Positions 189-55,301 of a stretch of DNA of 64,000 bases are shown here, one piece after another. A model generated the notes under the pieces. That model did not search any database. It was not told where the DNA came from and was given only the letters and a program-made list of their open reading frames with translations. This DNA is from a virus. The translations under genes were made by a program, and so were the position numbers. Each line of letters begins with the position of its first letter. Position 1 is the first letter of the stretch. The stretch lies in UHGV virus genome UHGV-0096064; one strand, 5' to 3'.

Positions 189-3100
189 TTGGTGGGTATA
201 GTCATGCAACAGAATATCTTCCAGTCTCCAGCATCTCAAATCTCACCAACTGTTTGGCAGACCGCTGTCAACTTCCTGCGGCTGGTCTTGCCTACGGGCG
301 TGGGGTTCTACAGCACCTCCTCGGTGGGGGCGAACCCCGGCTCGTGGCGAGACCAGCCGCATGCCAACATCGAGTCGATGGCCCAAACGGTGCTCTCGCT
401 CTCGGCGCAGCAATGCAACACCTACTTCGCCATGTCCGGCTTCCGTGAAGGACTCCATGAAGAACAGAAGCCGAACGGGAAGACGGCTACAGTCTTCCGC
501 ACGCAGGCCAACGCCATAGCGCAGCGTTGCCTCTGGCTCGACATCGACTGCGGGAAGGCGAACAGCGTCTATCCCAACGATGTCGCCGCCATCAATGCGC
601 TTACAAATTTCCTCAAGCAGACGGGACTCCCTCTTCCTGTCGTCGTCAGCTCCGGCCACGGCCTCCATCTCTACTGGCCTTTCATGGAGTCCGTAAGCAC
701 CACGCAGTGGCTGCAAATGGCCGGGATGCTCAAGTCCCTCTGCACCCACTTCCAGTTCGACGCCGACCACAGCCGGACGATGGATGCCGCCAGCGTCCTG
801 CGCGTGCCCGGCACCTACAACTACGACTTCAAGGGCAAGTATGACGGGCAGCCCAAGCTGTGCCGCATCCTCATCCTGCCCAAGACCATATACCATGTGC
901 TGGATATTGCCGGGACTCTGGTCAAGGCCATCAAGTCCAACCGGATAGCCCCGGCTACCTATACGTCGCCGCGCTCCACCTATCCTCTCCCGTCCGTAGG
1001 AGCCGTGCCTCCCGCTCCCGAAGGGCTGTCCTTCGTCGGGATGGAGGAAGCCTTCAACGGGCCGAAGCGTCATCCCTTCCAGATTATCAGGAAGTGCCGC
1101 CAGATTCAGCAAGCGGGCCTTGGGACGTACACCCAATGGTACAACATGATGCTGGTCATGAAGCACTGCGCCTTCGGCGAGCAGGCCGTCCACGACATCT
1201 CGAAGATGGACAAGGTGCGCTACGACTACAACAACACCCAGACGAAGCTGACGCAGGCCATTGAGGGCGGCTACGGGCCGTGCCGCTGCGACACCTTCAA
1301 CGAGAAAGACCCCGGCATCTGCCAGTCGTGTCCTTTCTGGGGGAAGATTACCTCCCCCCTCCAGTTGGGCGACCCGTATGTGGAACGCAAGCCTGTGAAG
1401 CTGGTCGCCGCCGATGTGAACAGCGACTCGCCCGTGGTCACGGCGTCCCCCTGCGCTCCCGTCATGGAGGTCATGCCCTTCAACAATCAGGAGTTCTCGG
1501 TCGTCCCCGGCAAGGGCGTCATCTGGCACAAGAAGACGCTCGTGTCCGCAGCCGAAGCCGGGGCCAACGATGATGAAGACCACTACATCACCAAGGACAT
1601 CCTCATTTGCGATGTGGAAATTTATGTCCATAGCGTCTGCATTGACGACACCGGGCCGGACTTGCAGCGCAGCTACCTCGTGCGCAAGCAGGCTCCGGGG
1701 AAGGCACCGGAAGAACTGCGGCTTAACGTGACCTCGGACTTGGGAACGCAGAAGCTCTGGAACTGGCTGGCGAACAATGCGATGCTGCCTGTACACCCCC
1801 GTTACAACAAGCAGTTGAGTGACTTTATGAGCACATATCTAGCGTCCATTCAGAACAAGCTGCCGGAAGTTTTTGTCCGCGACACGTTCGGTTGGGTGAC
1901 GAACCATGACGGCGTGACTGGAGAGTCCTATCCCGGCTTCATCGTCGGGCCTGAGATGTTCACGTCCCGTGGCGTCAAGCCTGTCAAGCTCACGCCCCGC
2001 GCCGCACAGGTGGCCGAGTCCTTCTCCCGTGTCGGGAATCTGGAGAAGTGGAAGATGGTACCGCAGATGTACCGCATCCTCGAACAACCCTTCTCTCAGC
2101 TCATGATGCTGACCGGGTTTGGCGCTCCGTTTATGAAGAACGGCGTCGGCACGGCCACCAACGTGGCCTACTCCCTCTGGGATGTGAAGGGCGGGAAGGG
2201 CAAGTCCACCGTCCTTGAAGCCGTCTCCAGCATATGGGGCTGCCCGAAGCATCTCCTCCAGACGAAGAACGATACCGTCTCGTCCCGTTTCCAGAAGTAC
2301 GCGGTTCACAAGAACCTGCCCATCTTCATCGACGAGGTGACGAACATCAGGGAAGCCGACCTCTCCGACCTTATCTACGACATCGTGAACGGACGGGAAA
2401 AGAGCCGTTCGCTTGGCTCCGGTACGGCGCTGGCCCGCTCCGGGTCATGGTCGACCACGACTCTGTTCACCTCGAACAAGTCTCTTTACGAGATGCTCAA
2501 GAGCAGCCACATCCAGTCTGACGCCACCTGCATGCGCGTGGTCGAGCACCAGTGCGACTTCAAGGACTATACGGGCACGCCCTACCAGAAGTACATCGCC
2601 AGCGTGCAGAACGTGATGCACACCAACTATGGGCTCGCTGGCCCGGCGTTCCTCCAGTATTGTTTCGACCATCCCGAAGTGATGGACGAGATTACCCATA
2701 AGGCCAAGGCTTTCGCCCAGACCTATACCGTCCAGTCCGACGAACGGTTCTGGATGTACGGCATCGGCATCCCGCTGGCGGCTGGTGAAATCGCCGTCCG
2801 CGCCGGACTCATCGACTACGACATCCCGTACCTGCGCGAGTGGTGCGTCAAGGTGCTCCTGCCCTCGCTCCGCGAAAAGATTCGCGACACGAAGTCCAGC
2901 GGCGACAACCTGCTGTCCGAGTTCCTCAACGAGAACATCAGCCACACCCTGTCCGTGAGCTCGGCCAAGCGCCCCTCCAGCCAGAAAGACCCCGGCATCC
3001 AGTCCGGCCTCGACACCTACGTCAAGTTTTACCCGGTCGGCGCTCTCTATATCCGCCACGAACAGGACACGAACACCTACTACGTCAGCACGAAGCGGCT

Positions 3101-3278
3101 GCAATACTGGTGCCGGGACAACCGAATCTCGATGGACGTCATGCTTCAAGAGCTGCGGAACAAGGGCGTCTACCAGAAGAACGACAAGATTCAATACGCC
3201 CTCGGCAAGTGGGTGTCGGCTCTTGACCATAGCAGGTCGACGGTCTTCCGGTTCGTCATCCCGCAGGATAAGGAATAG
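189..3278 (+). CDS. DNA primase-helicase (AEP prim-pol domain + P4/D5-type SF3 helicase)
   Basis: 1029 aa. N-terminal region has the AEP primase-polymerase signature (LWLDIDCG ... SSGHGLHLYWPF). C-terminal region has a P4-alpha-type Walker A (DVKGGKGKST). This arrangement is common in phage and plasmid primases. Confidence 0.8.
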   Translation: MVGIVMQQNIFQSPASQISPTVWQTAVNFLRLVLPTGVGFYSTSSVGANPGSWRDQPHANIESMAQTVLSLSAQQCNTYFAMSGFREGLHEEQKPNGKTATVFRTQANAIAQRCLWLDIDCGKANSVYPNDVAAINALTNFLKQTGLPLPVVVSSGHGLHLYWPFMESVSTTQWLQMAGMLKSLCTHFQFDADHSRTMDAASVLRVPGTYNYDFKGKYDGQPKLCRILILPKTIYHVLDIAGTLVKAIKSNRIAPATYTSPRSTYPLPSVGAVPPAPEGLSFVGMEEAFNGPKRHPFQIIRKCRQIQQAGLGTYTQWYNMMLVMKHCAFGEQAVHDISKMDKVRYDYNNTQTKLTQAIEGGYGPCRCDTFNEKDPGICQSCPFWGKITSPLQLGDPYVERKPVKLVAADVNSDSPVVTASPCAPVMEVMPFNNQEFSVVPGKGVIWHKKTLVSAAEAGANDDEDHYITKDILICDVEIYVHSVCIDDTGPDLQRSYLVRKQAPGKAPEELRLNVTSDLGTQKLWNWLANNAMLPVHPRYNKQLSDFMSTYLASIQNKLPEVFVRDTFGWVTNHDGVTGESYPGFIVGPEMFTSRGVKPVKLTPRAAQVAESFSRVGNLEKWKMVPQMYRILEQPFSQLMMLTGFGAPFMKNGVGTATNVAYSLWDVKGGKGKSTVLEAVSSIWGCPKHLLQTKNDTVSSRFQKYAVHKNLPIFIDEVTNIREADLSDLIYDIVNGREKSRSLGSGTALARSGSWSTTTLFTSNKSLYEMLKSSHIQSDATCMRVVEHQCDFKDYTGTPYQKYIASVQNVMHTNYGLAGPAFLQYCFDHPEVMDEITHKAKAFAQTYTVQSDERFWMYGIGIPLAAGEIAVRAGLIDYDIPYLREWCVKVLLPSLREKIRDTKSSGDNLLSEFLNENISHTLSVSSAKRPSSQKDPGIQSGLDTYVKFYPVGALYIRHEQDTNTYYVSTKRLQYWCRDNRISMDVMLQELRNKGVYQKNDKIQYALGKWVSALDHSRSTVFRFVIPQDKE

Positions 3279-38148: not shown

Positions 38149-39255
38149 CTACCGCCAACTAGCTGGAATGTTTGAATAATTTGCCGCATTGGTACAATTC
38201 ATGAAAGTGAAGTCATGGGTCGGCGTGTTCGGGTACTTCGACCACAAGGCCGGGACGCTCGACGTAATGGCGGCATCATACGAGAACGAATGGGTGAAGT
38301 CCTCGACCGATTTGGTCGTATCGAACAACGATTCCGGCACCGTGATTAACCCTGTACAATTATTGAACACATAGGCGAAGTTGGTCACTTTGGTCGTGGT
38401 GCTGAACAGGCCAGACGGGACGACGATAATCTCAGGACACTCCATGAACGTGCCGTAAAAGCTGGTCGCCTCGGTGTTATTCTTGAAAAGCGTCGACGGG
38501 ACTTGAACCAGATTGCTGCACCGGGCGAACGTCCCGGCGAAAAGCTGCGCCTTGGAGTTGTTGGCGAACAGATTCTGCGGCACCTCACGCAACCCGTCGC
38601 AGCCGTCGAAGCAATAGGAAAAGTCCACGACATTGGGGTTCCCCGCGAACAGGTCAGCCGGAATGTCCGTCACCTTCACCAGCCCATGGAAGCAGTTCTG
38701 GAACCCGGTCGCCGCCTTGCAATTGGCAAACAAATTCTCCGGGATGGATGAAATCAGGGAACAGCCGTTGAAGCTGTTGGAGAACCCGGTACACTCCGTC
38801 CACAGGTCAAAGAGGCCCACCGGGATGGAGCGGAGATGCGAGCAGCCGTAGAAGTGGGAATAGGGGTCGGTCAGCACCGGGGGCAAGCTGTAGGTCTCGG
38901 CACCATCCGGCCCGATGTTGACAAGGGTCTCCCGAAAGAATTGGGTATGCGGGATAGCCGCCCGTTCAGGGTTGCTTCCCACGAACTGGACTTGGCGCAT
39001 GTCCTTTGCCCAGATGCGCATGGTGTAAACGCCGGACTGGTCATAGTCGTGGATGAGCTGGTCGGTATCGCTGCTTCCGGCCTTGACGGTCGTGACCTTG
39101 CCATCTCCCCACTCAATGAAGGTATCAATCAGGAATACCCCCCTCTCGTCTTCCAGATAACCGAGCGGCGCGCTCGTCCGCTTTCCCCCGGATGTGGTGG
39201 CCCCGGTGTCCACGACGAACACCATCGGCATCATATTGTCTCTGTATCCATACAT
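38149..39255 (-). CDS. LRR (BspA-like, LRR_5-type) repeat protein, paralog 1
   Basis: Repeats of F..C..L..I.IP..LF.NN..V..F...F. N-terminus MYGYRDN is shared with the other LRR genes. Start refined to an ATG 93 nt inside the track ORF. Confidence 0.7.
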   Translation of the reverse strand: MYGYRDNMMPMVFVVDTGATTSGGKRTSAPLGYLEDERGVFLIDTFIEWGDGKVTTVKAGSSDTDQLIHDYDQSGVYTMRIWAKDMRQVQFVGSNPERAAIPHTQFFRETLVNIGPDGAETYSLPPVLTDPYSHFYGCSHLRSIPVGLFDLWTECTGFSNSFNGCSLISSIPENLFANCKAATGFQNCFHGLVKVTDIPADLFAGNPNVVDFSYCFDGCDGLREVPQNLFANNSKAQLFAGTFARCSNLVQVPSTLFKNNTEATSFYGTFMECPEIIVVPSGLFSTTTKVTNFAYVFNNCTGLITVPESLFDTTKSVEDFTHSFSYDAAITSSVPALWSKYPNTPTHDFTFMNCTNAANYSNIPASWR

Positions 39256-39269
39256 AACGGCATATCCTA

Positions 39270-39285
39270 TGTGTGTGTGTGTGTG
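39270..39285. repeat. (TG)8 dinucleotide microsatellite in divergent promoter region
   Basis: tgtgtgtgtgtgtgtg lies 15-30 nt upstream of the LRR1 start codon (minus strand) and ~80 nt upstream of plus-strand gene 39366. Confidence 0.8.
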
Positions 39286-39365
39286 CATCCCTTGACGAAT
39301 CTGCCTGGCAGTGCATACTACCCCCAAAGAACACCCATTGTCCAACACCCAATACAGGAGCCAAT

Positions 39366-39953
39366 ATGGACAGACTCATTTGCGGCTACCCGGTCGTGCC
39401 CAAGGCGAAAACGCTCATGGTGTACTCCGACCCCGACTATACCAGCCCCTACCCCGGATATGCTCTGGAAGAAGTCATGAACTTCCGTGCGGACGACAAG
39501 CCCTATGTCGGCCCCGTCGAGTTTGAATACGACGACAGCATCACTGGCCCCGCGTCCGTGACGACCGACAGCAAAGGGAAAGCCACCGTCACCCTCACGC
39601 CGAACAGAGATGGCCTCTCCATCATCACATGCAAATTCGGGGGGGGAGAGTACGAACTCAGGTACAGTGTGCTAAACCATCAGGTGAGGTTCGGCGTCAG
39701 AACCATCTACCAGAACCGGAACACCTCCACAACGCTCTGGGTCAACAATAACTTGCAGGAATACAACGGGACGGTCTCCATCAAGTACCCGGCAGGGCTT
39801 ACCGGGCCGACCAGCGGTAAGATAAGCGCCGGGGCGATGGCAATCACCATCAACGGCTCCACGCTCGGACGCAAACAGGTCGACGTCCAGTTCGGCGTGC
39901 AGACCGCCTACTGCGCCGTGGAAGTCATTAAAGACCCGATGCCTCCTCAGTAA
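39366..39953 (+). CDS. hypothetical secreted/Ig-like protein
   Basis: 196 aa from an ATG preceded by AGGAG. Thr/Gly-rich beta composition (TVTLTPNRDGLSIITCKFGGGEYELRYSV). Confidence 0.45.
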   Translation: MDRLICGYPVVPKAKTLMVYSDPDYTSPYPGYALEEVMNFRADDKPYVGPVEFEYDDSITGPASVTTDSKGKATVTLTPNRDGLSIITCKFGGGEYELRYSVLNHQVRFGVRTIYQNRNTSTTLWVNNNLQEYNGTVSIKYPAGLTGPTSGKISAGAMAITINGSTLGRKQVDVQFGVQTAYCAVEVIKDPMPPQ

Positions 39954-40027
39954 CCCGTACACCCCCTGTCATTCCGGCAGGGGGTTTCGTTTTGAACAGG
40001 ATTGACTATCCATTACCCCCCTTAAAA

Positions 40028-40055
40028 TCCTTTGATAAACCCTATCATCAAAGGA
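40028..40055 (+). promoter_or_regulatory. inverted repeat TCCTTTGAT-N10-ATCAAAGGA overlapping the SD of gene 40063
   Basis: Perfect 9-bp arms. The right arm contains the AAGGA Shine-Dalgarno 8 nt upstream of the ATG at 40063. Confidence 0.5.
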
Positions 40056-40062
40056 TGGAACC

Positions 40063-40695
40063 ATGTACGGATATTTGGAAAACAAGGGCAGGGTCATGGG
40101 AAAACTCGCCTTCTCCTGCTCTTGGAACTTCGTCGGCGACCTCGCCAACAACCCCCGGTACAACGCGCTAGTGACGACGCCGAACCTCCTCTTCCTCTCG
40201 ACGTCCTATGAAGAGCCGGGAGCGGATGACGGGATGGAGTTCACCTCAAACGGCCTTGTCTGCACCGAGGGGTCGATTGCCACGAAGACGCAAACGGATT
40301 CAAGCTGGACAATCTCAGGACTTACGGGGTCACAAATCAACATGGGCGCGGGTTCGGCCAATGCCTTCAACATCATCAACTACCTGACCGCATGGGTCTG
40401 GAGTCCGAAGAAGGAACAGTGGTATTCTCTGGGCACACTCCCCTCGTATGCACCGGGGTCTCCGACTTCCGTCAACACCGACCAGCACCTGTCGATGGAT
40501 AGGCAAGGCGAGGTGAGCTACCTCGAAGCCAAGGAACCCTCTGACGACCACCGCATCATCCGGTGGGAAGACTTCGACTTCCACTTCCAGATGACGGCGG
40601 TCTATACGGACAAGTACGAGAGCTGCAACTTCAAGGAACCCATCGTGAACGTGCGCTTCGGCGCGCCCTACGAGTTCGACCCCGACTACTTCTAG
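40063..40695 (+). CDS. hypothetical protein (N-terminus MYGYLENK resembles the LRR paralog N-termini)
   Basis: 210-aa ORF on the opposite strand to the surrounding LRR genes. Confidence 0.5.
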   Translation: MYGYLENKGRVMGKLAFSCSWNFVGDLANNPRYNALVTTPNLLFLSTSYEEPGADDGMEFTSNGLVCTEGSIATKTQTDSSWTISGLTGSQINMGAGSANAFNIINYLTAWVWSPKKEQWYSLGTLPSYAPGSPTSVNTDQHLSMDRQGEVSYLEAKEPSDDHRIIRWEDFDFHFQMTAVYTDKYESCNFKEPIVNVRFGAPYEFDPDYF

Positions 40696-40801
40696 AAAAG
40701 GCCGGAATGGGGCCTAGGATGGCGATAACGGGTCAAGATAGCGTTGGATAAGGGATGAGGGATTGCGAGGCTCTGGAGGGCGTTTCTGCCCCGGAAAAGG
40801 T

Positions 40802-40834
40802 GAACCCCTCTCAAGTTGCAGTTGAGAGGGGTTC
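40802..40834. terminator. strong hairpin (13-bp perfect stem GAACCCCTCTCAA/TTGAGAGGGGTTC, 7-nt loop)
   Basis: Between convergent genes 40063..40695 (+) and the small membrane ORFs (-). TTTT follows on the minus strand. Confidence 0.5.
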
Positions 40835-40939
40835 GGAGGACTGGTCATGTCCATACGTTGGAGTACGTATACGGCAGGAGACCGAAATCAGGATGTTTCC
40901 TTAATTACCCCGCCAGTATACCCCGGACGGGGCTTGAAG

Positions 40940-41071
40940 TCAACAGCCGCCCCATCGCTCCATCGCGTAGATGAGGATGCAGGCTATCACCCATCCCCAG
41001 AAGATGCCGCTGCACGCGGCCCAGAACGGGACGCACAGGAAGACGAACGTGAGGAACAAGATGTAAGCCAT
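40940..41071 (-). CDS. small hydrophobic membrane peptide (43 aa), below track cutoff
   Basis: MAYILFLTFVFLCVPFWAACSGIFWGWVIACILIYAMERWGGC. Start codon 1 nt after the stop of 41073..41264. Hand-derived. Confidence 0.3.
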   Translation of the reverse strand: MAYILFLTFVFLCVPFWAACSGIFWGWVIACILIYAMERWGGC

Positions 41072-41072
41072 A

Positions 41073-41264
41073 CTAAAGAGTTCTCGTGGCCCAAAGGATG
41101 AAGGCGATGCAGGCCAAAAGGCTCACCAGCACGGCGCAGGCAATCGCGAAATCATCCGAGGGCACGGCCTCCCGGTTCTGGCAGGGGCACTGGACGACGA
41201 TGGTTTGGCACACAGGCTGGCACTGGACAGGCATCGGATACTGAACGGACGGAGAAGCATTCAT
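41073..41264 (-). CDS. small membrane protein (63 aa, C-terminal TM helix)
   Basis: Cys/Pro/Gln-rich N-terminus, hydrophobic C-terminus (AIACAVLVSLLACIAFILWA). Confidence 0.35.
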   Translation of the reverse strand: MNASPSVQYPMPVQCQPVCQTIVVQCPCQNREAVPSDDFAIACAVLVSLLACIAFILWATRTL

Positions 41265-41304
41265 ATCGAGGACTCCTTTGGGTTAAATGGTTCGAGAACG
41301 GATG

Positions 41305-42916
41305 TTACTTCCAATCGTCGGGAATGTCAACGTAGTTGGAAGCACTGGTCACGTTGCGGAAACACCTGCCATGGTCGGCGACATCAGGGTATGTCGTCCA
41401 TAGCGTGGGTACGGCGCTTGTTACCTGTGAGCAACCGAGGAATGTACTTACAAAACTTTCCACTTTGCTCTTATTGTCAAACAACCCGGACGGGATGCTC
41501 TTTAGAACCTGCCAATTCGCGAACGTATTCTGGAAAGATGTGACATCCGGCTGGTTCCTGAACAGTCCGGCGGGAATCTCCACACCAGCCCACCACTCGG
41601 AAAAGGCGTTATAGAAGTTGGTCGCCTTGATATTGTTGGCAAATATGTCTTCCGGTATATGCGTCATCTTGGACAAACCGGCAAACACGCTGCCGAAGTT
41701 AGTAACCTTGGTGTTCTTAGCGAAAAGGTTCGCAGGGATTTCTCCCACGATACTCTGACATCCGCTGAACGTGGCGAAGAACACCGTGGCATCCGGCTAG
41801 TTGTCGAACAGTCCTTCGGGTATCCCCGTTATCAGGCTGCAATCGGAGAACACATAGGAGAAATCGGTAATCTTGGGATTGTTGGCGAACAATTCCGCCG
41901 GGATAGTACCCGTCACCTTGTAGCAGCTTTCAAACAGATACTCGACATCCACGAGTTCCGTCATGGCGCTCAGGAGATTGCCCGGAATGGAACCCGTGAG
42001 GTTCCTGCAATTGTCGAACAGATGGGCCACGGTGGTGACTTTCGTATGCTTGGAGAACATGGAGGGCATGGGATTGGCCCAACTCGAACAATTTTGGAAG
42101 GTCGATGCAAACGAAGTCACTTCGAGATTGGTGTCGAATAATGTCGTGGGCACCGAAACCAGCGAGGTGCAACCATAGAACGTGTTGGTGAAGTCGACGA
42201 CTCTGGTGTTCTTGGCGAAAAGTCTGGACGGGATGGTGGTGATGCCGCACGTTGAGAATGTACCGTAAAAAAGTCGTGACGTCCGGGCAATTATCAAAGA
42301 GGTTGTTGGGAATGGCCTTGATGCCGAGGCATCCATAAAAACAATCGGAAAAACTGTTGACCTTGACGGTCTTGTCGAAGAGACCGGATGGGATTTCCGT
42401 CAAACCGGAACAGGTGTGGAACGTGGAGTTGAAGGTCTCGGTGTTCGGATTGCCGTCGAAAATCCCGGCGGGGATGGCCTTCAATTTGGAGCAGCCGTAG
42501 AACGCGCCCTTGAACGCGGTCGGGACAAGTTCCGGAAAGCTGTATCCGGTAGGGTCTTTCGGCACGATGCCGACAAGCGTGTCCTGCCACAAGTCCATGT
42601 TCTTTATGGCGTTCGTAAACGAGCACTTGCCGAGGTCGTCCGCCGTCACTCCTATGACGTACTCGCCCGGCGTCGCGTAAGTATGCGTGGCGTACTCGTC
42701 GAAATAGGCATCACTATACTCGATGCCCTTGGGGATGGTCGTAATGGTGCCGTCGCCCCAATCCACTTGTACGGCAGTCTGCGTTTTATAACCAGACATC
42801 ATATTCTCGAACGCATGGATGGAGCTCATGGCTTTCGTATTGCCCGATGTCGTAGCCTCGGTATTCACGACACAATAGACGTATTCCCTATCCTTATGAT
42901 TCAAATAAGCATACAT
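41305..42916 (-). pseudogene. LRR (BspA-like) paralog 2, disrupted by in-frame TAG (41797-41799) and a +1 frameshift in an A6/T6 run (42267-42272)
   Basis: Three track ORFs (41930..42940, 41797..42336, 41305..41784) are one continuous LRR reading frame. It reads DVTTF|YGTFSTCGITTIP across the homopolymer if one T is removed, and GLFDN-TAG-PDATVFFATFSGC across the stop. Confidence 0.65.
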
Positions 42917-42938
42917 AATGATACTCTCCTTATTTTCC

Positions 42939-42948
42939 ATATATATAT
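42939..42948. repeat. (AT)5 dinucleotide repeat upstream of LRR2 start
   Basis: atatatatat lies 23-32 nt upstream of the SD-preceded ATG (42914-42916) on the minus strand. Confidence 0.6.
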
Positions 42949-42992
42949 GGGGATTCAGTCAAAGAGCGACGCCATGTGAGGTCAGGAGGGGA

Positions 42993-44708
42993 CTACTTCC
43001 AGTCGTCAGGAATGTCGGCGTAGTTGGTCAACTTGCTGCAATTTCTGAAACATTTAGTTCCATTGGCGTCAGGATGAGTGACCCACAAGTCGGGAGCTGT
43101 TCCAACCAGCTTGTAACAATTCTCGAATATCTGGTGGAAATCCTTGATATTCGGATTGTTCACGAAGAGGTTCGTTGGCAGCGTCGTCAAATTGGTGCAT
43201 CCATTAAACATCATCTCCACGTCATCCAGAGCAGGATTGTTGTCAAACAACCCTTCCGGGATGGCACCCTCCAACGTGTTCAAACTATAGAAAGCGTAAG
43301 CCAAATTCTTTAACTTGGGGTTGTTGGCGAACAGCTTGGCGGGAATGGAGCCGTTGAAATCACAACCGTAGAACACGCTGTCGAGATACGTTAGCTCCGG
43401 GCAATTGGCAAAAAGATTCTCAGGAATGGGGCCGTTCAAATTGCATACCCTGAACAAACCGGAAAAAATCTCGGCAAGCGGGTTATGAGCGAACAACCCT
43501 TCCGGAATGGGGCCCACCAAACCATCACAACCATAGAAACAGCCGGAGAAGTTCGTCACTTCGGGGCAATTGGCAAAAAGGTTTTCAGGGATAGTTCCTG
43601 TGAGTCCCTCGCAGAACCGGAAGGTATCCGAAAACGTCTGCACCTTCGTGCAATTGGCAAAGAAGTTCTCAGGAATGGCACCAGTGAGCTTCTCACATTC
43701 ATAGAACGTCGCCTCGAAAGAAATAACTTCGGGGCAATTGGCGAACAAACCCGCAGGCAGGGAACCCGTCAGGCCCTTGCAACCGTAGAATGCAGAGACA
43801 AAGGTACCCGCCTTCCGGTTATTGGCGAAAAGATTCTCAGGAATGGAGCCAGTGATATTTTCGTCAAAATAGAACAATCGGTCAAAAGTGTAAGCTATGG
43901 TGTTGTGGGCAAAAAGGTTTTCAGGGATAGGCCCTGTCAATCCAGGGCAGTGGCTGAATACATAGGCGAACGATGTCACATTGGGATTGTTGGCGAAGAG
44001 ATTCTCAGGAATTTCAGTCAGTCCCTCACAACCATTGAACACGCTGTCAAACTTGTAAACTTTTGGACAATTGGCAAAAAGGTTTTCAGGGATAGACGTG
44101 ATATTTTCACAGCTATAGAATGTGGAAGCAAACGACTCGACCTTGGTGTTCTTGGTGAAAAGGTCTTCGGGAAGCGCACCCGTAAGTCCAAGACAATAAT
44201 AGAACGTATTTTCAAAAGTGGTGGCGTCTACGTTTTTGTAGAATATGCCTTTAGGAACCTGCGTCAACTTCTTGCAACTATAAAAGGCATAAGCAAGTCC
44301 GTCATGCCGGAAAACAGGCAGCGAATAGGACTCGGCACCCTTGGGGCCAATCCCGATAAGAGTTCTTCTATAGACATTCCATTCACTCTGGTTGATGTCA
44401 TAACCATGCAACTTGCAGACGCTGAAATCATCAGCGTAAACAGTCACAGTATATTCGCCGGGGGTGGCATAGTCATGCGTGGAATATTTATCCCAATACT
44501 GTGAATAAAACTCCGTACCCTTGGGAATTTCGGAAATTGAACCATCACCCCAATCAATAGTAATTGCCGTCAGGGATTGCTCATCAAGACCAAAGCTATT
44601 GAATGAATATACTGGAACCACAAACTCGGTATCACCCTCGTTGGTGGCCTCGGTATTTATAAGAAAGATAAGGCTTTCACGCGGCTCATTGTCACGATAA
44701 CCATACAT
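42993..44708 (-). CDS. LRR (BspA-like) repeat protein, paralog 3 (571 aa)
   Basis: About 18 LRR_5-type repeats (FxxCxxLTGxIPExLFANxP.V..F). Start refined to the MYGYRDNEP ATG with AAAGGAGA upstream. The track ORF extends a further 234 nt upstream. Confidence 0.7.
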   Translation of the reverse strand: MYGYRDNEPRESLIFLINTEATNEGDTEFVVPVYSFNSFGLDEQSLTAITIDWGDGSISEIPKGTEFYSQYWDKYSTHDYATPGEYTVTVYADDFSVCKLHGYDINQSEWNVYRRTLIGIGPKGAESYSLPVFRHDGLAYAFYSCKKLTQVPKGIFYKNVDATTFENTFYYCLGLTGALPEDLFTKNTKVESFASTFYSCENITSIPENLFANCPKVYKFDSVFNGCEGLTEIPENLFANNPNVTSFAYVFSHCPGLTGPIPENLFAHNTIAYTFDRLFYFDENITGSIPENLFANNRKAGTFVSAFYGCKGLTGSLPAGLFANCPEVISFEATFYECEKLTGAIPENFFANCTKVQTFSDTFRFCEGLTGTIPENLFANCPEVTNFSGCFYGCDGLVGPIPEGLFAHNPLAEIFSGLFRVCNLNGPIPENLFANCPELTYLDSVFYGCDFNGSIPAKLFANNPKLKNLAYAFYSLNTLEGAIPEGLFDNNPALDDVEMMFNGCTNLTTLPTNLFVNNPNIKDFHQIFENCYKLVGTAPDLWVTHPDANGTKCFRNCSKLTNYADIPDDWK

Positions 44709-44738
44709 ATTGGTTCTCCTTTTTGTCCTTTCTATACA

Positions 44739-44748
44739 AGAGAGAGAG
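44739..44748. repeat. (AG)5 dinucleotide repeat upstream of LRR3 start
   Basis: agagagagag lies ~31-40 nt upstream of the ATG at 44706-44708 (minus strand). Confidence 0.55.
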
Positions 44749-45255
44749 CTGGCAAGGACTGGAGCGGGACAGGGTGTGGGCCGGGAACTGGACTGGAAAT
44801 TTCTCCGAAAAAATTTTGGAGGGGGTGAATGCTGTGGATTCAGACGGGGGTCAACGAAGCCCCCACCCCCCCTCGGACTGGACTCATCTACGAACTCGGC
44901 GTCGACGGTGTCGCGCAATGTAGGTTGGCACAGGAATTGCATAGGAAAAGTTGCTCGAAGTCGCGAGCGTTCCTATATATGGAGTGGCCGGGGCGCGCCA
45001 AGTCCTTCGTCCAAATCCCCCGCCGGGCCGTCCCTACCCTCGACGCCCTCGACGCCCTCGACGCCCTCCCGCCCGCCTCACTCCATCACCTTGATGAAGC
45101 GGCCTGACGCGCCGCCTGCTCCACGTTCGCGGCTCATCCCTACCTTATATATACCCTGACCTTTTCGCCGCAAGCTGACGCGCTTCCCGTCCTGCTATGT
45201 CATCAGCTCCATCCAGTCCCGCCAGTCCCGCCAGTCCTACCAGACAACCAAGTGC

Positions 45256-45548
45256 ACAATGTAATATCAACAAACCTATATTACATTGTTACCTACACTG
45301 TAGTATTACACTGTTACAGGTGTTATATTGTAGCATTACACTGTAACGCGCAATGTACTTTTACAATGTAACACCTGTTACAATGTAATGTTATTGTAAA
45401 TTACATTGCACACTTGCTTACATTGTTATGGCATTGTTTTTTACATTGTTGCAGGTGTTACATTGTTTTTTACAATGTAAGTTACACTGTAAGTGTAATT
45501 ACATTGCATGTAACATTGCGTCGCGCAATGTAAATTTTTACAATGTAA
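45256..45548. repeat. dense array of 11-bp palindrome TTACAnTGTAA (about 17 copies in 300 bp; about 24 in 45250-46250) - putative iterons/operator array
   Basis: For example TTACAATGTAA at about 45361, 45378, 45470, 45538, 45817; TTACATTGTAA at about 45686 and 46119; TTACACTGTAA at about 45336 and 45482. Includes a perfect 12-bp IR ACAATGTAATAT-N10-ATATTACATTGT at 45256-45289. Confidence 0.75.
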
Positions 45549-45571
45549 TTACACACAGCGCGGGTTCCTTA

Positions 45572-45589
45572 TTGATAATGGATTATCAA
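45572..45589. promoter_or_regulatory. perfect palindrome TTGATAAT-GG-ATTATCAA (operator-like)
   Basis: 8-bp arms with a 2-bp spacer, immediately followed by CTTGCAACTTTTGCAA. Confidence 0.5.
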
Positions 45590-45752
45590 CTTGCAACTTT
45601 TGCAAAAAACGAGATTCCGTAAGTTGTTGAATTTGTTGACCCGGAAAAATTTTCGCAAACCCCAAAAAGTGGTGAAAAAATTACACAGGGAGAAAGTTAC
45701 ATTGTAAAAACGGGGACGAACGGGAGGACAGGAAGAGTAGAAAAATCAAGGG

Positions 45753-45811
45753 TTTATATATATTATTTTTTAAAAAAGAATAAAATATATATATGTACTA
45801 TGTAACTTTTT
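45753..45811. other. AT-rich stretch (~59 bp, 3-4 G/C) - candidate DNA-unwinding element
   Basis: tttatatatattattttttaaaaaagaataaaatatatatatgtactatgtaactttttacc in an otherwise ~60% GC genome. Flanked by iteron-like repeats. Confidence 0.45.
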
Positions 45812-46429
45812 ACCCCCTTACAATGTAACGGCCTATCCTAGTCGGCAAAAATGCAAAATGCTTTTTTCCAAATCGCCGAACTTGATTGTGAAAATTTTCA
45901 CCACTCAGGCGGCCTCGATTTACATAAGCTGCTATGTAACTTTTTGCGGAACCCCCCAAAAAAAACTTGCAAATTTGCATACCCCCTTGAAAATCAGCGT
46001 AACACTTCAACGATTTCAACAACTTGCAACCAATTTTAAAATGCAAGTGAATTTTTTCACACTTGCAACTAGTTGGAATATATTAGGATACATCTTGCAA
46101 GTCAATTTGCAACCCCATTTTTACATTGTAAAAAGTAAAATCGTGTTACTCGTTTACATTGCGCAACACCGTCGACGCCGCCTTACACTGCATAACGCAA
46201 TGTAAAAACAATGCAACAATCCTCACTATGTAATTACATTGTTCTGCCCCTTGTCCAGTTCTGAGCGCGACACACGCGACGCCGTCCCCAAGTCCTGAGC
46301 TCCGCCCTGTCGCCTCTGCCTTCCGAATCCGGTTTCACTATCCCCAATAATCCAGTTCACCTTAACATCTTGATATTCCTACTCAATCCAGTTCAACAAA
46401 AATAATTCCGAAAATTTTCGCTACAACTC

Positions 46430-46458
46430 TTGACAACATTTCAGTAACTCCTTATCTT
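46430..46458 (+). promoter_or_regulatory. sigma70-like promoter TTGACA-N17-TATCTT for the early operon
   Basis: TTGACA at 46430-46435 and TATCTT at 46453-46458, ~85 nt upstream of the first early gene (46544). Confidence 0.45.
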
Positions 46459-46543
46459 GGCATCAACAACGGCGAACAACGCCGCCGGTTGCTACCGTAG
46501 CAACCCGATAACTTCACCTAATCCTATTCAAAGGAGTTCCCCA

Positions 46544-53983: not shown

Positions 53984-54427
53984 ATGTCTGACTATCGTGA
54001 AATGGCTCTGGACTTCATGAACAAGCAGGCTACCATTCGTGAAATGACTCCCGCCGAATACGTCGCCGGGGTTAAGGAAGCCGAGAAGCAGTTCGAGCTG
54101 CTCGATCAGGTCGAGGAGGAATCCTCTGACCAGACCATGCTCGTCGCTGACCCCGCCACTGCCATCAAGGAACGCACCATCACTTGCTGCTGCTGCGGGA
54201 ACCAGTACCGCCTGCTGACCCGCAAGCACCTTGCCAGCCACGGGTTGGACTATGAACAATACCGCCAGCTTTGCGGCTACAAGCCTGACCTTCCCCTTAT
54301 CGCCAAGTCCTTGCAGCGTGAGCGCCGCAACCGCATGCGCGAGATGCGCCTGTGGCAGAAGAAGGAAGGCGCTCAGGGTCATGAGCAGGCTCAGGTTCTC
54401 CCCAAGCCCAAGGCTTTAGAGGACTAG
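53984..54427 (+). CDS. Ros/MucR-family zinc-finger transcriptional regulator
   Basis: ERTITCCCCGNQYRLLTRKHLASHGLDYEQYRQLCGYKPDLPLIAKSLQRERRNRMREM aligns with the Ros/MucR core ([56 protein letters not shown]). Confidence 0.65.
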   Translation: MSDYREMALDFMNKQATIREMTPAEYVAGVKEAEKQFELLDQVEEESSDQTMLVADPATAIKERTITCCCCGNQYRLLTRKHLASHGLDYEQYRQLCGYKPDLPLIAKSLQRERRNRMREMRLWQKKEGAQGHEQAQVLPKPKALED

Positions 54428-54437
54428 GAGGCTGGTC

Positions 54438-55301
54438 ATGGAACAGCAAGAACTTGAACAGCGGATAGTCCAGTTGGAGGCTACCGTAAACGCTCTGGTC
54501 ACGCAGTTCCTTCCCCCCGTCACGGAACGGCTCGCCGCCTTGGAACGCATCGTCCGGGTTATCAAGCCGGAAGGGACAGAGGGAGAGGAGAAGCCAGCGG
54601 CTGAACCGCGCAAGCGTTCCGCCCTGTCCTACCGGATGTACCAGATGGTGAAGCTCCTGCATGAGCAGGGCGCTCCCGTGAAGGAAATCGTCAGTCGGTG
54701 CGACTTGCCCTATACGACCGTGCGGGCGTACATCAATCTCTCTCCCGAACGTGTCGAGCAGCTTCGGCAGAAGCAGGAGAAGAAGGATGCGGAAGCGGCG
54801 GAACGTGCGCTGCGTGCGATGCGCAAGCAGGCGAAAGAGATGGGCAACGACATGCCCGTACCTCCTCCGCCCGCTGGTGCCGATGCTGACGTGGACGCTC
54901 CGGCTGGCGTGGTGGTAGGCACGGTCGACCCGAAGACGCCTCGTGAGGAGGCGTATGTGGCGGCCCAGAACCAGTCCGTCCTGTCTGCCGAGGGGACGCT
55001 CGCCAACCCCACGGTGGCGGCGGAACCCGTGCCGACCGAGGCCGTAGCCGAGGACAGCTATCAGGTCGAGTGCCCCCGTTCGATGGAGCCCTACGGTTCC
55101 GCCGGATGGTATGACTGGACGCATGAGCTGCGGACGTTCGCTCAGTCTCACCAGTTCCCCGATGGGTTCCCTCGTTTCTATCCCGTCGACAGGGGTACGC
55201 TGGTCTACGTCCAGTACATGAACGAGCAGGTGGAGCCGACGCCTGTCGCCGCTGGCGCGGTCGATTGGGCCTTCTCCGTACTGCGTTGGAAGTTGGTATA
55301 G
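54438..55301 (+). CDS. HTH-containing putative transcription regulator
   Basis: Leu-zipper-like N-terminus. HTH-like YRMYQMVKLLHEQGAPVKEIVSRCDLPYTTVRAYIN. Poly-Pro/Ala linker. Confidence 0.45.
   Translation: MEQQELEQRIVQLEATVNALVTQFLPPVTERLAALERIVRVIKPEGTEGEEKPAAEPRKRSALSYRMYQMVKLLHEQGAPVKEIVSRCDLPYTTVRAYINLSPERVEQLRQKQEKKDAEAAERALRAMRKQAKEMGNDMPVPPPPAGADADVDAPAGVVVGTVDPKTPREEAYVAAQNQSVLSAEGTLANPTVAAEPVPTEAVAEDSYQVECPRSMEPYGSAGWYDWTHELRTFAQSHQFPDGFPRFYPVDRGTLVYVQYMNEQVEPTPVAAGAVDWAFSVLRWKLV

What the first reader, a model, noticed from the sequence alone, without database searches (positions are those of the whole stretch)
45590..46130. Second repeat family (CTTGCAA, at least 7 copies) and a 59-bp AT-rich block (45753-45811) consistent with a DNA-unwinding element
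Downstream of the iteron array the motif (A/C)(C)TTGCAA recurs at about 45590, 45600 (TTTTGCAA), 45966, 46021, 46062, 46094 and 46110 (TTTGCAA), often with short A/T tracts between copies. In the middle is a nearly pure A/T stretch, tttatatatattattttttaaaaaagaataaaatatatatatg. Iterons + AT-rich DUE + a second site family is the architecture of theta-type origins. Alternatively the TTGCAA copies are -35-like elements (TTGACA with the middle bases swapped) of several stacked promoters.
Basis: partly seen in the sequence, partly recalled or inferred. Interest (0 to 1): 0.55.

Follow-up and report, generated by a model that had tools for sequence, protein, structure and literature searches.

The report
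Probable phage replication origin region
The repeated CTTGCAA motif and the A/T-only block are real, conserved parts of the single large non-coding control region of a ~64-kb uncultured gut phage, and they most likely belong to its replication origin, a well-known kind of element, though this has not been shown experimentally.

Summary
Seven of the window's 16 TTGCAA hexamers lie in 45591-46112 (0 of 2000 local shuffles reach this). The A/T block 45753-45811 is the least stable duplex in the 64 kb and opens at far lower superhelical stress than any other site in a simplified SIDD model.

The window is a nearly complete ~64-kb podophage genome. The finding sits in its only large non-coding region (44709-46543), where the late (-) and early/replication (+) arms diverge.

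TTACAnTGTAA iterons lie on both sides of the A/T block, not only upstream. Relatives with about 80% DNA identity, and one with only about 48% protein identity, keep the same layout. That layout is an iteron field, proximal iterons, a purine tract, an A/T block, and a CTTGCA cluster starting about +185 nt from the block centre.

The phage encodes an AEP-primase fused to a Cch/SaPIbov1-Rep-like initiator helicase. This class uses iterons flanking an A/T-rich region.

Best reading: a replication origin with its unwinding element. The CTTGCA array is a conserved accessory site array in a promoter-bearing block. It is not a set of -35 hexamers, because no -10 partners exist. It is a new member of a known kind. 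Function is inferred, not shown.

The parts
44709..46543 (.). The only large non-coding region of the ~64-kb genome. It lies between the first late-arm gene (start 44708, - strand) and the first early-arm gene (start 46544, + strand).
   Evidence: ORF and family scans. The ORFs inside it are not conserved (indels in relatives). The assembly is circular.
45254..45548 (.). Main iteron field: 16 copies of TTACAnTGTAA with at most 2 mismatches, at irregular 11-39-nt spacing and in both orientations.
   Evidence: Positions are largely kept in L094-L096. The same core is present in L101.
45590..45605 (+). Left CTTGCA pair: CTTGCAAC-TT-TTGCAA. The first copy is conserved. The second lies in a replaced cassette that in relatives carries four other WTGCAA copies.
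45696..45707 (+). Proximal iteron GTTACATTGTAA, left of the A/T block. It forms a perfect 12-bp inverted repeat with 45818-45829.
   Evidence: Lies in a 97-100% conserved block.
45708..45752 (+). Conserved purine-rich tract (…GGGAGGACAGGAAGAG…). AGGACAGG is also found 17-20 nt before the A/T block in L101. The tract contains the IHF-consensus match AATCAAGGGTTTA (45744-45756).
45753..45811 (.). A/T block, the candidate DNA-unwinding element. Its core, 45753-45795, is an imperfect A/T-only palindrome.
   Evidence: (I22). The right half varies in sequence but stays A/T in relatives. An equivalent least-stable block is present in L094, L101 and L105.
45795..45829 (.). Right proximal iterons: degenerate GTACTATGTAA (45795-45805) and perfect TTACAATGTAAC (45818-45829).
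45910..46165 (.). Conserved block D (93-100% identical in the ~80% relatives). It holds the main CTTGCA cluster.
45966..45980 (+). CTTGCAAATTTGCAT, which contains the 12-bp perfect palindrome TGCAAATTTGCA.
46023..46047 (+). CTTGCAAC … ATGCAAG, an inverted pair 13 nt apart.
46062..46068 (+). CTTGCAA copy lying in the spacer of the + promoter and at the predicted start of the - promoter.
46094..46112 (+). CTTGCAAG-TCAA-TTTGCAAC. The first copy lies in the spacer of the - promoter and at the predicted start of the + promoter.
46056..46105 (.). Two overlapping sigma70-like promoters, each matching 10/12: + TTCACA-17-TATATT (46056-46084) and - TTGACT-17-TATATT (46105-46077). They lie in the 100% conserved core.
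45888..45901 (.). GTGAAAATTTTCAC palindrome (CRP/Rex-like). A second one lies at 46047-46060. These are the only two GTGA-N6-TCAC sites in the genome.
   Evidence: Conserved in relatives.
46121..46244 (.). Right-hand iteron group (46121, 46183, 46223, 46234).
46430..46458 (+). Early-arm sigma70-type promoter TTGACA-17-TATCTT. In other strains it reads TTGACA-17-TATATC, with an unrelated spacer of the same length.
189..3278 (+). Candidate trans-acting initiator: a 1029-aa AEP-primase fused to a DUF927 Cch/SaPIbov1-Rep-like helicase.
53984..55301 (+). Candidate DNA-binding proteins for one of the repeat families: a Ros/MucR-family protein (53984-54427) and a conserved coiled-coil/HTH protein (54438-55301).

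Best explanation
The segment is the core and the early-gene side of the phage's replication origin, embedded in the genome's single non-coding control region.

Proposed mechanism (inferred):
1. The C-terminal DNA-binding part of the 1029-aa primase-helicase, a Cch/SaPIbov1-Rep-type self-loading initiator helicase, binds the TTACAnTGTAA iterons. These flank the A/T block as an inverted pair at 45696 and 45818, and are reinforced by the distal iteron fields.
2. The A/T block, by far the easiest place in the genome to unwind, melts. This may be helped by an IHF-type bend at 45744.
3. Two helicase rings load there, and the fused AEP primase starts synthesis. Forks leaving in both directions would run co-directionally with transcription of both gene arms.
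4. The CTTGCA(A) family is a separate, orientation-biased site array. It begins about 185 nt from the block centre and lies inside a conserved block that carries two overlapping sigma70-like promoters. It most likely binds a second conserved protein, phage (HTH or MucR-like) or host. That protein would control these origin-proximal promoters and so couple transcription to origin firing or early expression.

Shown here: the motifs, their enrichment, their conservation in place, the predicted duplex instability, and the identity of the helicase family.
Inferred: who binds what, and that replication starts here.
For: - Motif enrichment: 0/2000 local shuffles reach the observed counts. This is the only clustered-repeat locus in the genome.
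- The A/T block is the global stability minimum. It opens at sigma -0.042 with P 0.97, against <= 0.001 elsewhere.
- A perfect inverted iteron pair and further iterons lie on both sides of the block.
- Conservation in ~80% relatives: six of seven TTGCAA copies are kept in place. The seventh lies in a replaced cassette that independently carries four WTGCAA copies. The right half of the A/T block changes sequence but stays A/T.
- In L101 (HTH protein 48% identical, same synteny) the same iteron core, the purine tract AGGACAGG, an A/T block that is the locus minimum, and four + strand CTTGCA copies at +185 to +275 are present. The window has them at +187 to +315. The distance from the block to the first early gene is +777 versus +765.
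- In L105 the iteron has changed to CTAGTATCA, but CTTGCA/TGCAAG copies still abut the A/T block.
- Initiator: the DUF927 domain. A family profile hits SCCmec Cch at E 4.5e-27 and SaPIbov1 Rep at E 7.4e-24. The AlphaFold model (pLDDT 88) matches both over its full length.
- Such helicases use iterons on both sides of an A/T-rich region (PMC9371898; PMC7581432).
- Both IHF-consensus sites in the genome lie in this region, one touching the block.
- No Rep_3, lambda-O or DnaA-type initiator was found among the proteins scanned.
Against: - There is no replication data of any kind.
- The cumulative GC skew minimum (49359) and maximum (24715) do not fall on the region.
- SaPI and SCCmec origins lie directly downstream of rep. 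Here the helicase gene is about 21 kb away, and nothing repeat-like follows it.
- The iterons are 11-bp palindromes in a field of about 24 copies. This looks as much like operators of a dimeric regulator or a nucleation array for the encoded MucR-like protein as like helicase iterons.
- In L101 an iteron overlaps the -10 of the early promoter, which points to a repressor function.
- Block D is conserved as a whole, so conservation of the individual TTGCAA copies within the ~80% relatives is not independent evidence.
Confidence: 0.55

Rival explanations
1. The region is only a transcriptional control hub. The palindromic TTACAnTGTAA sites are operators or a nucleation array for a phage regulator (the Ros/MucR-like or the HTH protein). 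The CTTGCA sites are operators of a second regulator over the divergent promoters in block D. The A/T block is bent or UP-type DNA, or a silencer nucleation site. The origin lies elsewhere or is not sequence-defined.
For: - The motifs are palindromic.
- Two 10/12 sigma70-like promoters sit in the 100% conserved core, with CTTGCA copies placed symmetrically over each promoter's spacer and the other promoter's start.
- Both CRP/Rex-like palindromes in the genome lie here.
- An iteron overlaps the -10 of the early promoter in L101.
- MucR-family genes are present in the window, L101, L103 and L106. L105 has a different iteron and carries an HU-like gene in place of MucR.
Against: - It does not explain why the genome's most unstable 50-60 bp is kept A/T-only across three lineages and bracketed by inverted iterons at fixed distances.
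- A Rep/Cch-type initiator helicase needs a cognate repeat-plus-A/T origin, and no other candidate locus exists in the genome.
- The two roles are not mutually exclusive.
Confidence: 0.25
2. The segment is the packaging and terminus region (a pac site or direct terminal repeats). This is where genome ends lie in N4-like phages with divergent arms. The repeats would be terminase-binding sites flanking a cleavage region.
For: - It lies at the junction of the late-arm start and the early-arm start in a circular assembly.
- Some short contigs end inside the region: L001 at about 44870, L006 at 44986 and L088 at 45808.
- The P1 pac site also has repeats on both sides of a central region plus an IHF site (own knowledge).
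Against: - Full-length contigs from at least six samples break at different places, none in this region.
- Breaks in short contigs are what tandem and dispersed repeats would be expected to cause.
- No terminase small subunit was recognised next to it.
- Termini cannot be assessed without reads.
Confidence: 0.08
3. The TTGCAA copies are -35 hexamers of several stacked early promoters, or -12 elements of sigma54 promoters.
For: - TTGCAA matches TTGACA at 4/6 positions.
- Phage early regions often carry tandem promoters (own knowledge).
- All five exact CTTGCAA copies read on the + strand, the direction of the early genes (the copy at 46094 is the palindrome CTTGCAAG, so it also reads on the - strand).
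- TTGCA is the sigma54 -12 core, and one perfect sigma54 consensus exists at 44926.
Against: - None of the seven copies has a TAnnnT hexamer 16-18 nt downstream (reading). The same holds for the five copies in L101.
- None has GG 10 nt upstream of the GC (reading).
- The one promoter supported by comparison, at 46430, uses TTGACA.
Confidence: 0.04

Closest known systems
SaPI replication origins (SaPIbov1, SaPI1) served by Rep self-loading helicases
   Same: The initiator helicase is of the same structural family. Short repeats lie on both sides of a central A/T-rich region with copies in opposite orientation. No separate loader is evident (PMC9371898, PMC7581432).
   Different: SaPI iterons are 5-6 nt and number 6-12, directly downstream of rep. 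Here there are about 24 palindromic 11-mers spread over 1 kb, 21 kb from the helicase gene, plus a second conserved CTTGCA family and promoters. Binding has not been tested.
SCCmec Cch / Cch2 helicases with a putative origin of AAGTG iterons
   Same: Cch is the best sequence and structure match of the phage helicase half. The concept of an iteron-dependent helicase also applies (PMC7581432).
   Different: The SCCmec origin is a short direct-repeat region next to the gene. The primase there is a separate polymerase-type pair, whereas here an AEP primase is fused.
Phage P4 ori/crr with the alpha primase-helicase (own knowledge)
   Same: A fused primase-helicase also recognises repeated sites through its C-terminal domain, and the repeats occur in more than one cluster.
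   Different: P4 alpha belongs to a different helicase family (D5/Primase_Cterm type). P4 repeats are direct octamers, and crr lies 4.5 kb from ori.
Iteron-type theta plasmid origins (P1 oriR, RK2 oriV, pSC101; PMC4980987)
   Same: Iterons, an A/T-rich unwinding element and a second site family (DnaA boxes, IHF). IHF-consensus sites and one relaxed DnaA-box match are present here.
   Different: No plasmid-type Rep protein was found. The repeats are not 17-22-bp tandem direct repeats. CTTGCA is not a DnaA box.
SV40 / papillomavirus origins (own knowledge; PMC7581432)
   Same: Palindromic initiator sites lie next to an A/T tract, two helicase hexamers assemble, and promoter or enhancer elements flank the core.
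   Different: Those are eukaryotic viruses whose DNA-binding domain lies N-terminal of the helicase. There is no sequence relation.

Membership tests
Origin of a self-loading Rep/Cch-type initiator helicase (SaPI-type) | The element encodes a Rep/Cch (DUF927, MCM-like AAA+) initiator helicase | tested here: met
   Pfam DUF927. Profile against PDB: 5dgk E 4.5e-27, 8tch E 7.4e-24. Model pLDDT 88, Foldseek 5dgk E 4e-17 and 8tch E 7e-13.
Origin of a self-loading Rep/Cch-type initiator helicase (SaPI-type) | Short repeats on both sides of a central A/T-rich region, with copies in opposite orientation | tested here: met
   GTTACATTGTAA at 45696 and its reverse complement at 45818 bracket the block. 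Further copies lie on both sides.
Origin of a self-loading Rep/Cch-type initiator helicase (SaPI-type) | The A/T-rich region is easily melted | tested here: met
   In silico only: it is the nearest-neighbour stability minimum of the genome and the dominant site in the simplified SIDD model.
Origin of a self-loading Rep/Cch-type initiator helicase (SaPI-type) | Origin lies immediately downstream of the rep gene | tested here: not met
   The helicase gene is at 189-3278 and the region at 44.7-46.5 kb. There is no repeat cluster downstream of the gene.
Origin of a self-loading Rep/Cch-type initiator helicase (SaPI-type) | The C-terminal domain of the helicase binds the iterons, and replication starts there | not testable with these tools
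   The model ends in a helix-helix-strand-strand unit (residues 428-483 of the modelled half) and aligns to the end of Cch. Binding needs EMSA or footprinting.
Iteron-type theta plasmid origin | Plasmid-type Rep initiator (Rep_3, RepA, pi or TrfA class) | tested here: not met
   None was found among the roughly 45 proteins scanned with Pfam and PHROGs. Not every small ORF was scanned.
Iteron-type theta plasmid origin | Tandem direct repeats of 17-22 bp in one orientation | tested here: not met
   The units are 11-bp palindromes at irregular 11-39-nt spacing, in both orientations.
Iteron-type theta plasmid origin | Host DnaA boxes as the second site family | tested here: inconclusive
   There is one relaxed-consensus match, TTTTTCACA at 46053. 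The repeated family is CTTGCA, which does not resemble a DnaA box.
Stacked sigma70 promoters with TTGCAA as the -35 hexamer | A -10 hexamer (TAnnnT) 16-18 nt downstream of each copy | tested here: not met
   The scans report no promoter whose first hexamer is TTGCAA. Manual reading of all seven copies and of the five in L101 agrees.
Sigma54 promoters with TTGCA as the -12 element | A GG dinucleotide 10 nt upstream of the GC (TGGCAC-N5-TTGCW) | tested here: not met
   The only site in the window with 0 or 1 mismatch inside the region is 44926-44941, which is outside the finding. None of the seven copies qualifies.
Packaging site / terminal repeat | Physical genome ends or a terminase cut within the segment | not testable with these tools
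   Only assemblies are available. Long contigs break at varied places.

The most novel reading that the evidence does not exclude
The conserved, orientation-biased CTTGCA array at a fixed distance (about +185 nt) from the unwinding element is a second, independent origin-licensing element. It would be either the loading or start-site array for the fused AEP primase, or the binding array of the conserved HTH protein. It would act together with host-signal-dependent transcription: a perfect, conserved sigma54 promoter at 44926 points into the iteron field, and CRP/Rex-like sites lie in block D. Replication of this gut-phage family would then be gated by host physiological state through a two-protein, transcription-coupled origin.
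Probability: 0.12. Interest if true: 0.6.

Novelty: new member of a known kind. Interest (0 to 1): 0.38.

Why it matters
Origins of replication are essentially unmapped in uncultured gut phages. This work gives a concrete, testable origin model for a family of ~60-64-kb podophages that recur in human-gut metagenomes.

The model names a cis element with three conserved parts at conserved distances, and a trans factor of the Cch/SaPI-Rep self-loading helicase class fused to an AEP primase. It suggests that SaPI-type origin logic extends to lytic-looking phages.

It also supplies defined DNA sites and candidate proteins for binding assays, and a marker region for replication-activity (peak-to-trough) estimates from metagenomes.

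As a kind of element it is ordinary. Its value lies in the comparative support and in the conserved second motif of unknown binder.

Tried and rejected
- blastn of the region against the phage and plasmid collections found no match.
- Rfam and tRNA scans found nothing.
- RNA folding of block D (both strands) and of 44945-45250 gave z-scores of -1.2, -1.7 and +0.1, so a structured RNA is not supported.
- The ORFs inside the region (92 aa at 44829-45107; 115 aa at 45858-46205) are broken by indels in relatives and were rejected as genes.
- A 20-mer from the cluster in IMG/VR hit only unrelated tail-fibre genes.
- Iteron-pair and iteron-triple patterns in IMG/VR and GTDB genomes returned 78 and 120 loci. 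None encodes a homologue of this phage's proteins, so they gave no host hint and no extra relatives.
- Protein-based locus searches found nothing useful. These used the 116-aa and 571-aa neighbours in IMG/VR and JGI contigs, and the HTH family in GTDB.
- The Kyano_Gp96-like neighbour gave only three homologue clusters.
- L103, L104 and L106 do not reach the non-coding region.
- A single global dyad axis was rejected, because the inverted-repeat seeds scatter over many axes.
- GC skew is uninformative.
- The giant 2516-aa virion protein has no PDB sequence relative and no Pfam RNA-polymerase match, so an N4-type hairpin-promoter reading of the iterons was dropped.
- The terminase gave no packaging-type assignment.

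Full report
**Context**

The window is almost a whole phage genome. Genes on the - strand run from 44708 down to 4709. They include BspA/LRR-like receptor-binding paralogues, terminase, portal, major head protein, an internal virion protein, a lysin and a 2516-aa giant virion protein. Genes on the + strand run from 46544 to the window end and continue at the window start. They include small early genes, NUDIX, a Ros/MucR-family protein, an HTH protein, family-A DNA polymerase, PD-(D/E)XK nuclease, an exoribonuclease-like protein, an SNF2 helicase and a 1029-aa primase-helicase.

Independent assemblies of 63.6-64.3 kb from several human-gut samples join the window end to its start. They break at different places, so the map is circular. 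Cultured relatives are remote: HMO-2011-type and Roseobacter CRP phages, and Rhizobium RHph_TM3_14A, with portal identity of 21-28%.

The finding lies in the only large non-coding stretch, 44709-46543, exactly where the two arms diverge.

**Observation**

CTTGCAA occurs at 45590, 45966, 46023, 46062 and 46094, and TTTGCAA at 45599 and 46106. Seven of the 16 TTGCAA hexamers in the window therefore lie within 522 bp. None of 2000 dinucleotide-preserving shuffles of the local sequence reaches the observed counts. A motif-blind scan for clustered 8-mers in the whole genome finds only the iteron words and ACTTGCAA.

The A/T block is the least stable stretch of the 64 kb at every scale tried (z up to 5.8). 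I wrote a simplified Benham-type SIDD calculation (closed state plus all single open runs, 5-kb domains). In it the block opens with P 0.32, 0.78, 0.97 and 0.999 at sigma -0.038, -0.040, -0.042 and -0.045. At -0.042 the six next-best sites in the genome stay at or below 0.001. The block also wins outright in a 10-kb domain shared with its nearest competitors.

One correction is needed. All 13 TACATTGT words lie between 45256 and 46242. The 24 copies of TTACAnTGTAA with at most 2 mismatches include sites at 45697, 45795, 45818, 46121, 46183, 46223 and 46234. The A/T block and the second family are therefore nested inside the iteron field. The block is bracketed by a perfect 12-bp inverted iteron pair, 45696-45707 and 45818-45829.

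**Comparative evidence**

The first early gene is an ORFan with a single 90% cluster. Variants within that cluster led to strains whose non-coding region is 98% identical (L087) or about 80% identical and collinear (L094, L095, L096-98).

In these strains the region is a mosaic. Some blocks are 93-100% identical: 44901-45020, 45095-45185, 45686-45775, 45910-46165 and 46363-46430. Between them lie replaced cassettes.

- Six of the seven TTGCAA copies are kept in place, but five of them sit in block D, which is conserved as a whole.
- More telling is the seventh copy. It lies in a cassette (45597-45670) that cannot be aligned between lineages, yet the other lineage carries four WTGCAA copies there. 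That is about 0.14 expected per 100 nt, by my own estimate from composition.
- The right half of the A/T block differs in sequence but remains A/T only.
- The early promoter at 46430 keeps TTGACA, a 17-nt spacing and TATnTn, while the spacer itself is unrelated between strains. This marks it as a genuine sigma70-type promoter and shows what real promoter conservation looks like in this phage.

A much more distant relative was reached through the conserved HTH protein. L101 is a 59-kb contig. Its HTH protein is 48% identical, and its gene order is the same from the strand switch to the primase-helicase. Its 2.26-kb non-coding region shows no general DNA similarity but has the same design:

- GC-rich tandem repeats.
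- A field of more than 25 (T)ACATTGTA(A) iterons at -520 to -230 from the A/T centre.
- Three proximal iterons at -108 to -77.
- A purine tract containing AGGACAGG.
- A 60-nt A/T block that is the least stable 50-mer of the 20-kb locus.
- Four + strand CTTGCA copies at +185, +202, +227 and +275, against +187, +244, +283 and +315 in the window.
- More iterons at +313 to +386.
- The first early gene at +777, against +765 in the window.

A still more distant genome, L105, has a primase-helicase (P0043, carried on the same 63,153-bp contig) that is 46% identical to the window's. It has replaced the iteron with CTAGTATCA. It still has its stability minimum in the non-coding region, and CTTGCA/TGCAAG copies at -111, -40, -29 and +211.

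The density of CTTGCA in the non-coding region is 3-10 times that of the rest of each locus, in all lineages. The second family is therefore a selected feature with the core CTTGCA (CTTGCAAC in this phage). It is more conserved than the iteron sequence.

**What it is not**

None of the copies has a -10 hexamer at 16-18 nt, here or in L101, and none has the GG of a sigma54 -24 element. They are therefore not -35 or -12 elements.

Block D does contain two overlapping 10/12 sigma70-like promoters. They share the near-palindromic AATATATT as -10, and they lie in the stretch that is 100% conserved. The copies at 46062 and 46094 each lie over the spacer of one promoter and the predicted start of the other. 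This is an operator-like placement.

The only two GTGA-N6-TCAC (CRP/Rex-like) palindromes in the genome are also here. So are both matches to the IHF consensus, one of them abutting the A/T block, and one relaxed DnaA-box match. There is no evidence for a structured RNA or for a conserved ORF.

**The likely trans factor**

The 1029-aa protein has AEP-primase motifs (DxD, H), Cys clusters and a DUF927 helicase domain. A profile of 21 family members matches the SCCmec Cch helicase (E 4.5e-27) and the SaPIbov1 replication initiator (E 7.4e-24).

An AlphaFold model of residues 541-1029 (pLDDT 88) matches both over its full length. The next matches are MCM, SV40 large T and SaPI PriRep structures.

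The literature describes this class as self-loading initiator helicases. Their C-terminal domain recognises iterons placed on both sides of an A/T-rich region, with copies in opposite orientation, and two hexamers are thought to load there (PMC9371898; PMC7581432).

No other kind of initiator was found among the proteins scanned. No other locus in the genome has clustered repeats.

**Interpretation**

The most economical reading is that 45250-46250 is the replication origin. In this reading:

- The iterons are the initiator sites.
- 45753-45811 is the unwinding element.
- The CTTGCA array is an accessory, protein-binding array within an origin-proximal promoter block.

Forks leaving this point would be co-directional with transcription on both arms.

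What is shown: the anatomy, its statistics, its conservation, the predicted instability, and the family of the helicase.

What is inferred: which protein binds which family, and that initiation happens here.

Weaknesses:
- GC skew is unhelpful (minimum 49359, maximum 24715).
- The helicase gene is 21 kb away, unlike in SaPIs.
- The iterons are palindromic and very numerous.
- A MucR-like protein is encoded.
- In L101 an iteron overlaps the early promoter's -10.

A regulatory role for the iterons is therefore likely at least in addition. A purely regulatory hub remains the main rival, and a packaging or terminus function cannot be excluded without reads.

**Verdict**

The origin-type architecture holds, but the promoter alternative does not. 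The closest model is a SaPI/SCCmec-type origin rather than a classical plasmid theta origin. This is a new member of a known kind of element, of moderate interest. The interest rests mainly on the conserved CTTGCA array of unknown binder and on the testable origin model for an uncultured gut-phage family.

Noticed in passing
window 44926-44941 (+): TGGCACAGGAATTGCA is a perfect sigma54 (-24/-12) consensus. It is the only perfect match in 64 kb, lies in a 100% conserved non-coding block, and points into the iteron field. It is kept in L094, L095 and L096. L105 has TGGCACTAACTTTGCC at L105:562, also pointing at its A/T block. None was seen in L101, whose region has an N gap. No enhancer-binding protein gene was found.
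   Followed up: partly
window 44897-44922 and 46155-46180: A 26-bp inverted repeat (96% complementary) brackets the iterons, the A/T block and the CTTGCA cluster, with 1232 bp between its arms. Strain L087 carries a paired change (T44902G with A46175C) that keeps complementarity, but the arms are degraded in L095. L101 has an equivalent composite motif, TACATTGC..CACCTGGCG, five times. The paired change could reflect gene conversion or inversion, or it could be chance.
   Followed up: partly
window 44746-44756: An (AG)n microsatellite lies 38 nt upstream of the first late-arm gene. It has about 4, 5 or 10 units in different strains, so it may be a phase-variable leader or promoter spacer.
   Followed up: no
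whole window; 44756-44881 and 45213-45237: GGACTGG/CCAGTCC is over-represented (34 copies against 11.9 expected). Its orientation follows the gene arm (15:2 against 6:11, Fisher p 0.004). Six copies lie inside the non-coding region, and the polarity flips between 44881 and 45213. This could be codon-driven in genes, but the non-coding copies are not explained.
   Followed up: partly
whole window: GATC is strongly depleted: about 17 sites in 64 kb, none in the non-coding region. This suggests avoidance of a GATC-specific restriction system in the host.
   Followed up: no
window 45888-45901 and 46047-46060: The only two GTGA-N6-TCAC palindromes in the genome are here. TTGTGAAAATTTTCACCA resembles CRP/FNR or Rex operators. 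Both are conserved in relatives, and the second overlaps the -35 of the + promoter in block D.
   Followed up: partly
window 45039-45068 and 45213-45240; L101:290-735: GC-rich tandem repeats lie left of the iteron field: 9-bp CGACGCCCT x3 and CCAGTCCCG x3. The relative L101 has a 13-nt unit (CACCGACCTGCGT) repeated more than 30 times at the same relative place, interrupted by an assembly gap.
   Followed up: no
window 46350, 46386, 47326 (+): ATCCAGTTCAMC recurs upstream of early-arm genes, twice before the 46430 promoter and once between the second and third early genes next to a CTTGCAAC. With up to 2 mismatches there are 28 matches against 4.7 expected genome-wide.
   Followed up: no
window 38149-44708 (-); L087, L094: Four paralogous BspA/LRR-plus-PKD-like genes (phrog_9915) open the late arm. 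The first is swapped between otherwise near-identical strains: 571 aa here, 482 + 536 aa in L087, and 919 aa in L094. This looks like receptor-binding cassette exchange.
   Followed up: no
L094/L096 2633-2911; L101 842-1045: Relatives carry extra small genes inside or at the edge of the non-coding region. L094 and L096 have a 92-aa gene inserted between the early promoter and the 116-aa gene. L101 has a 67-aa gene with its own RBS and terminator.
   Followed up: no
L099 (Rhizobium phage RHph_TM3_14A) 2357-3125: This remote cultured relative has a 770-bp gene-free stretch of 22-37% GC, with ATAATGATAT-type repeats, about 2 kb into its early arm. It may be an analogous element.
   Followed up: partly
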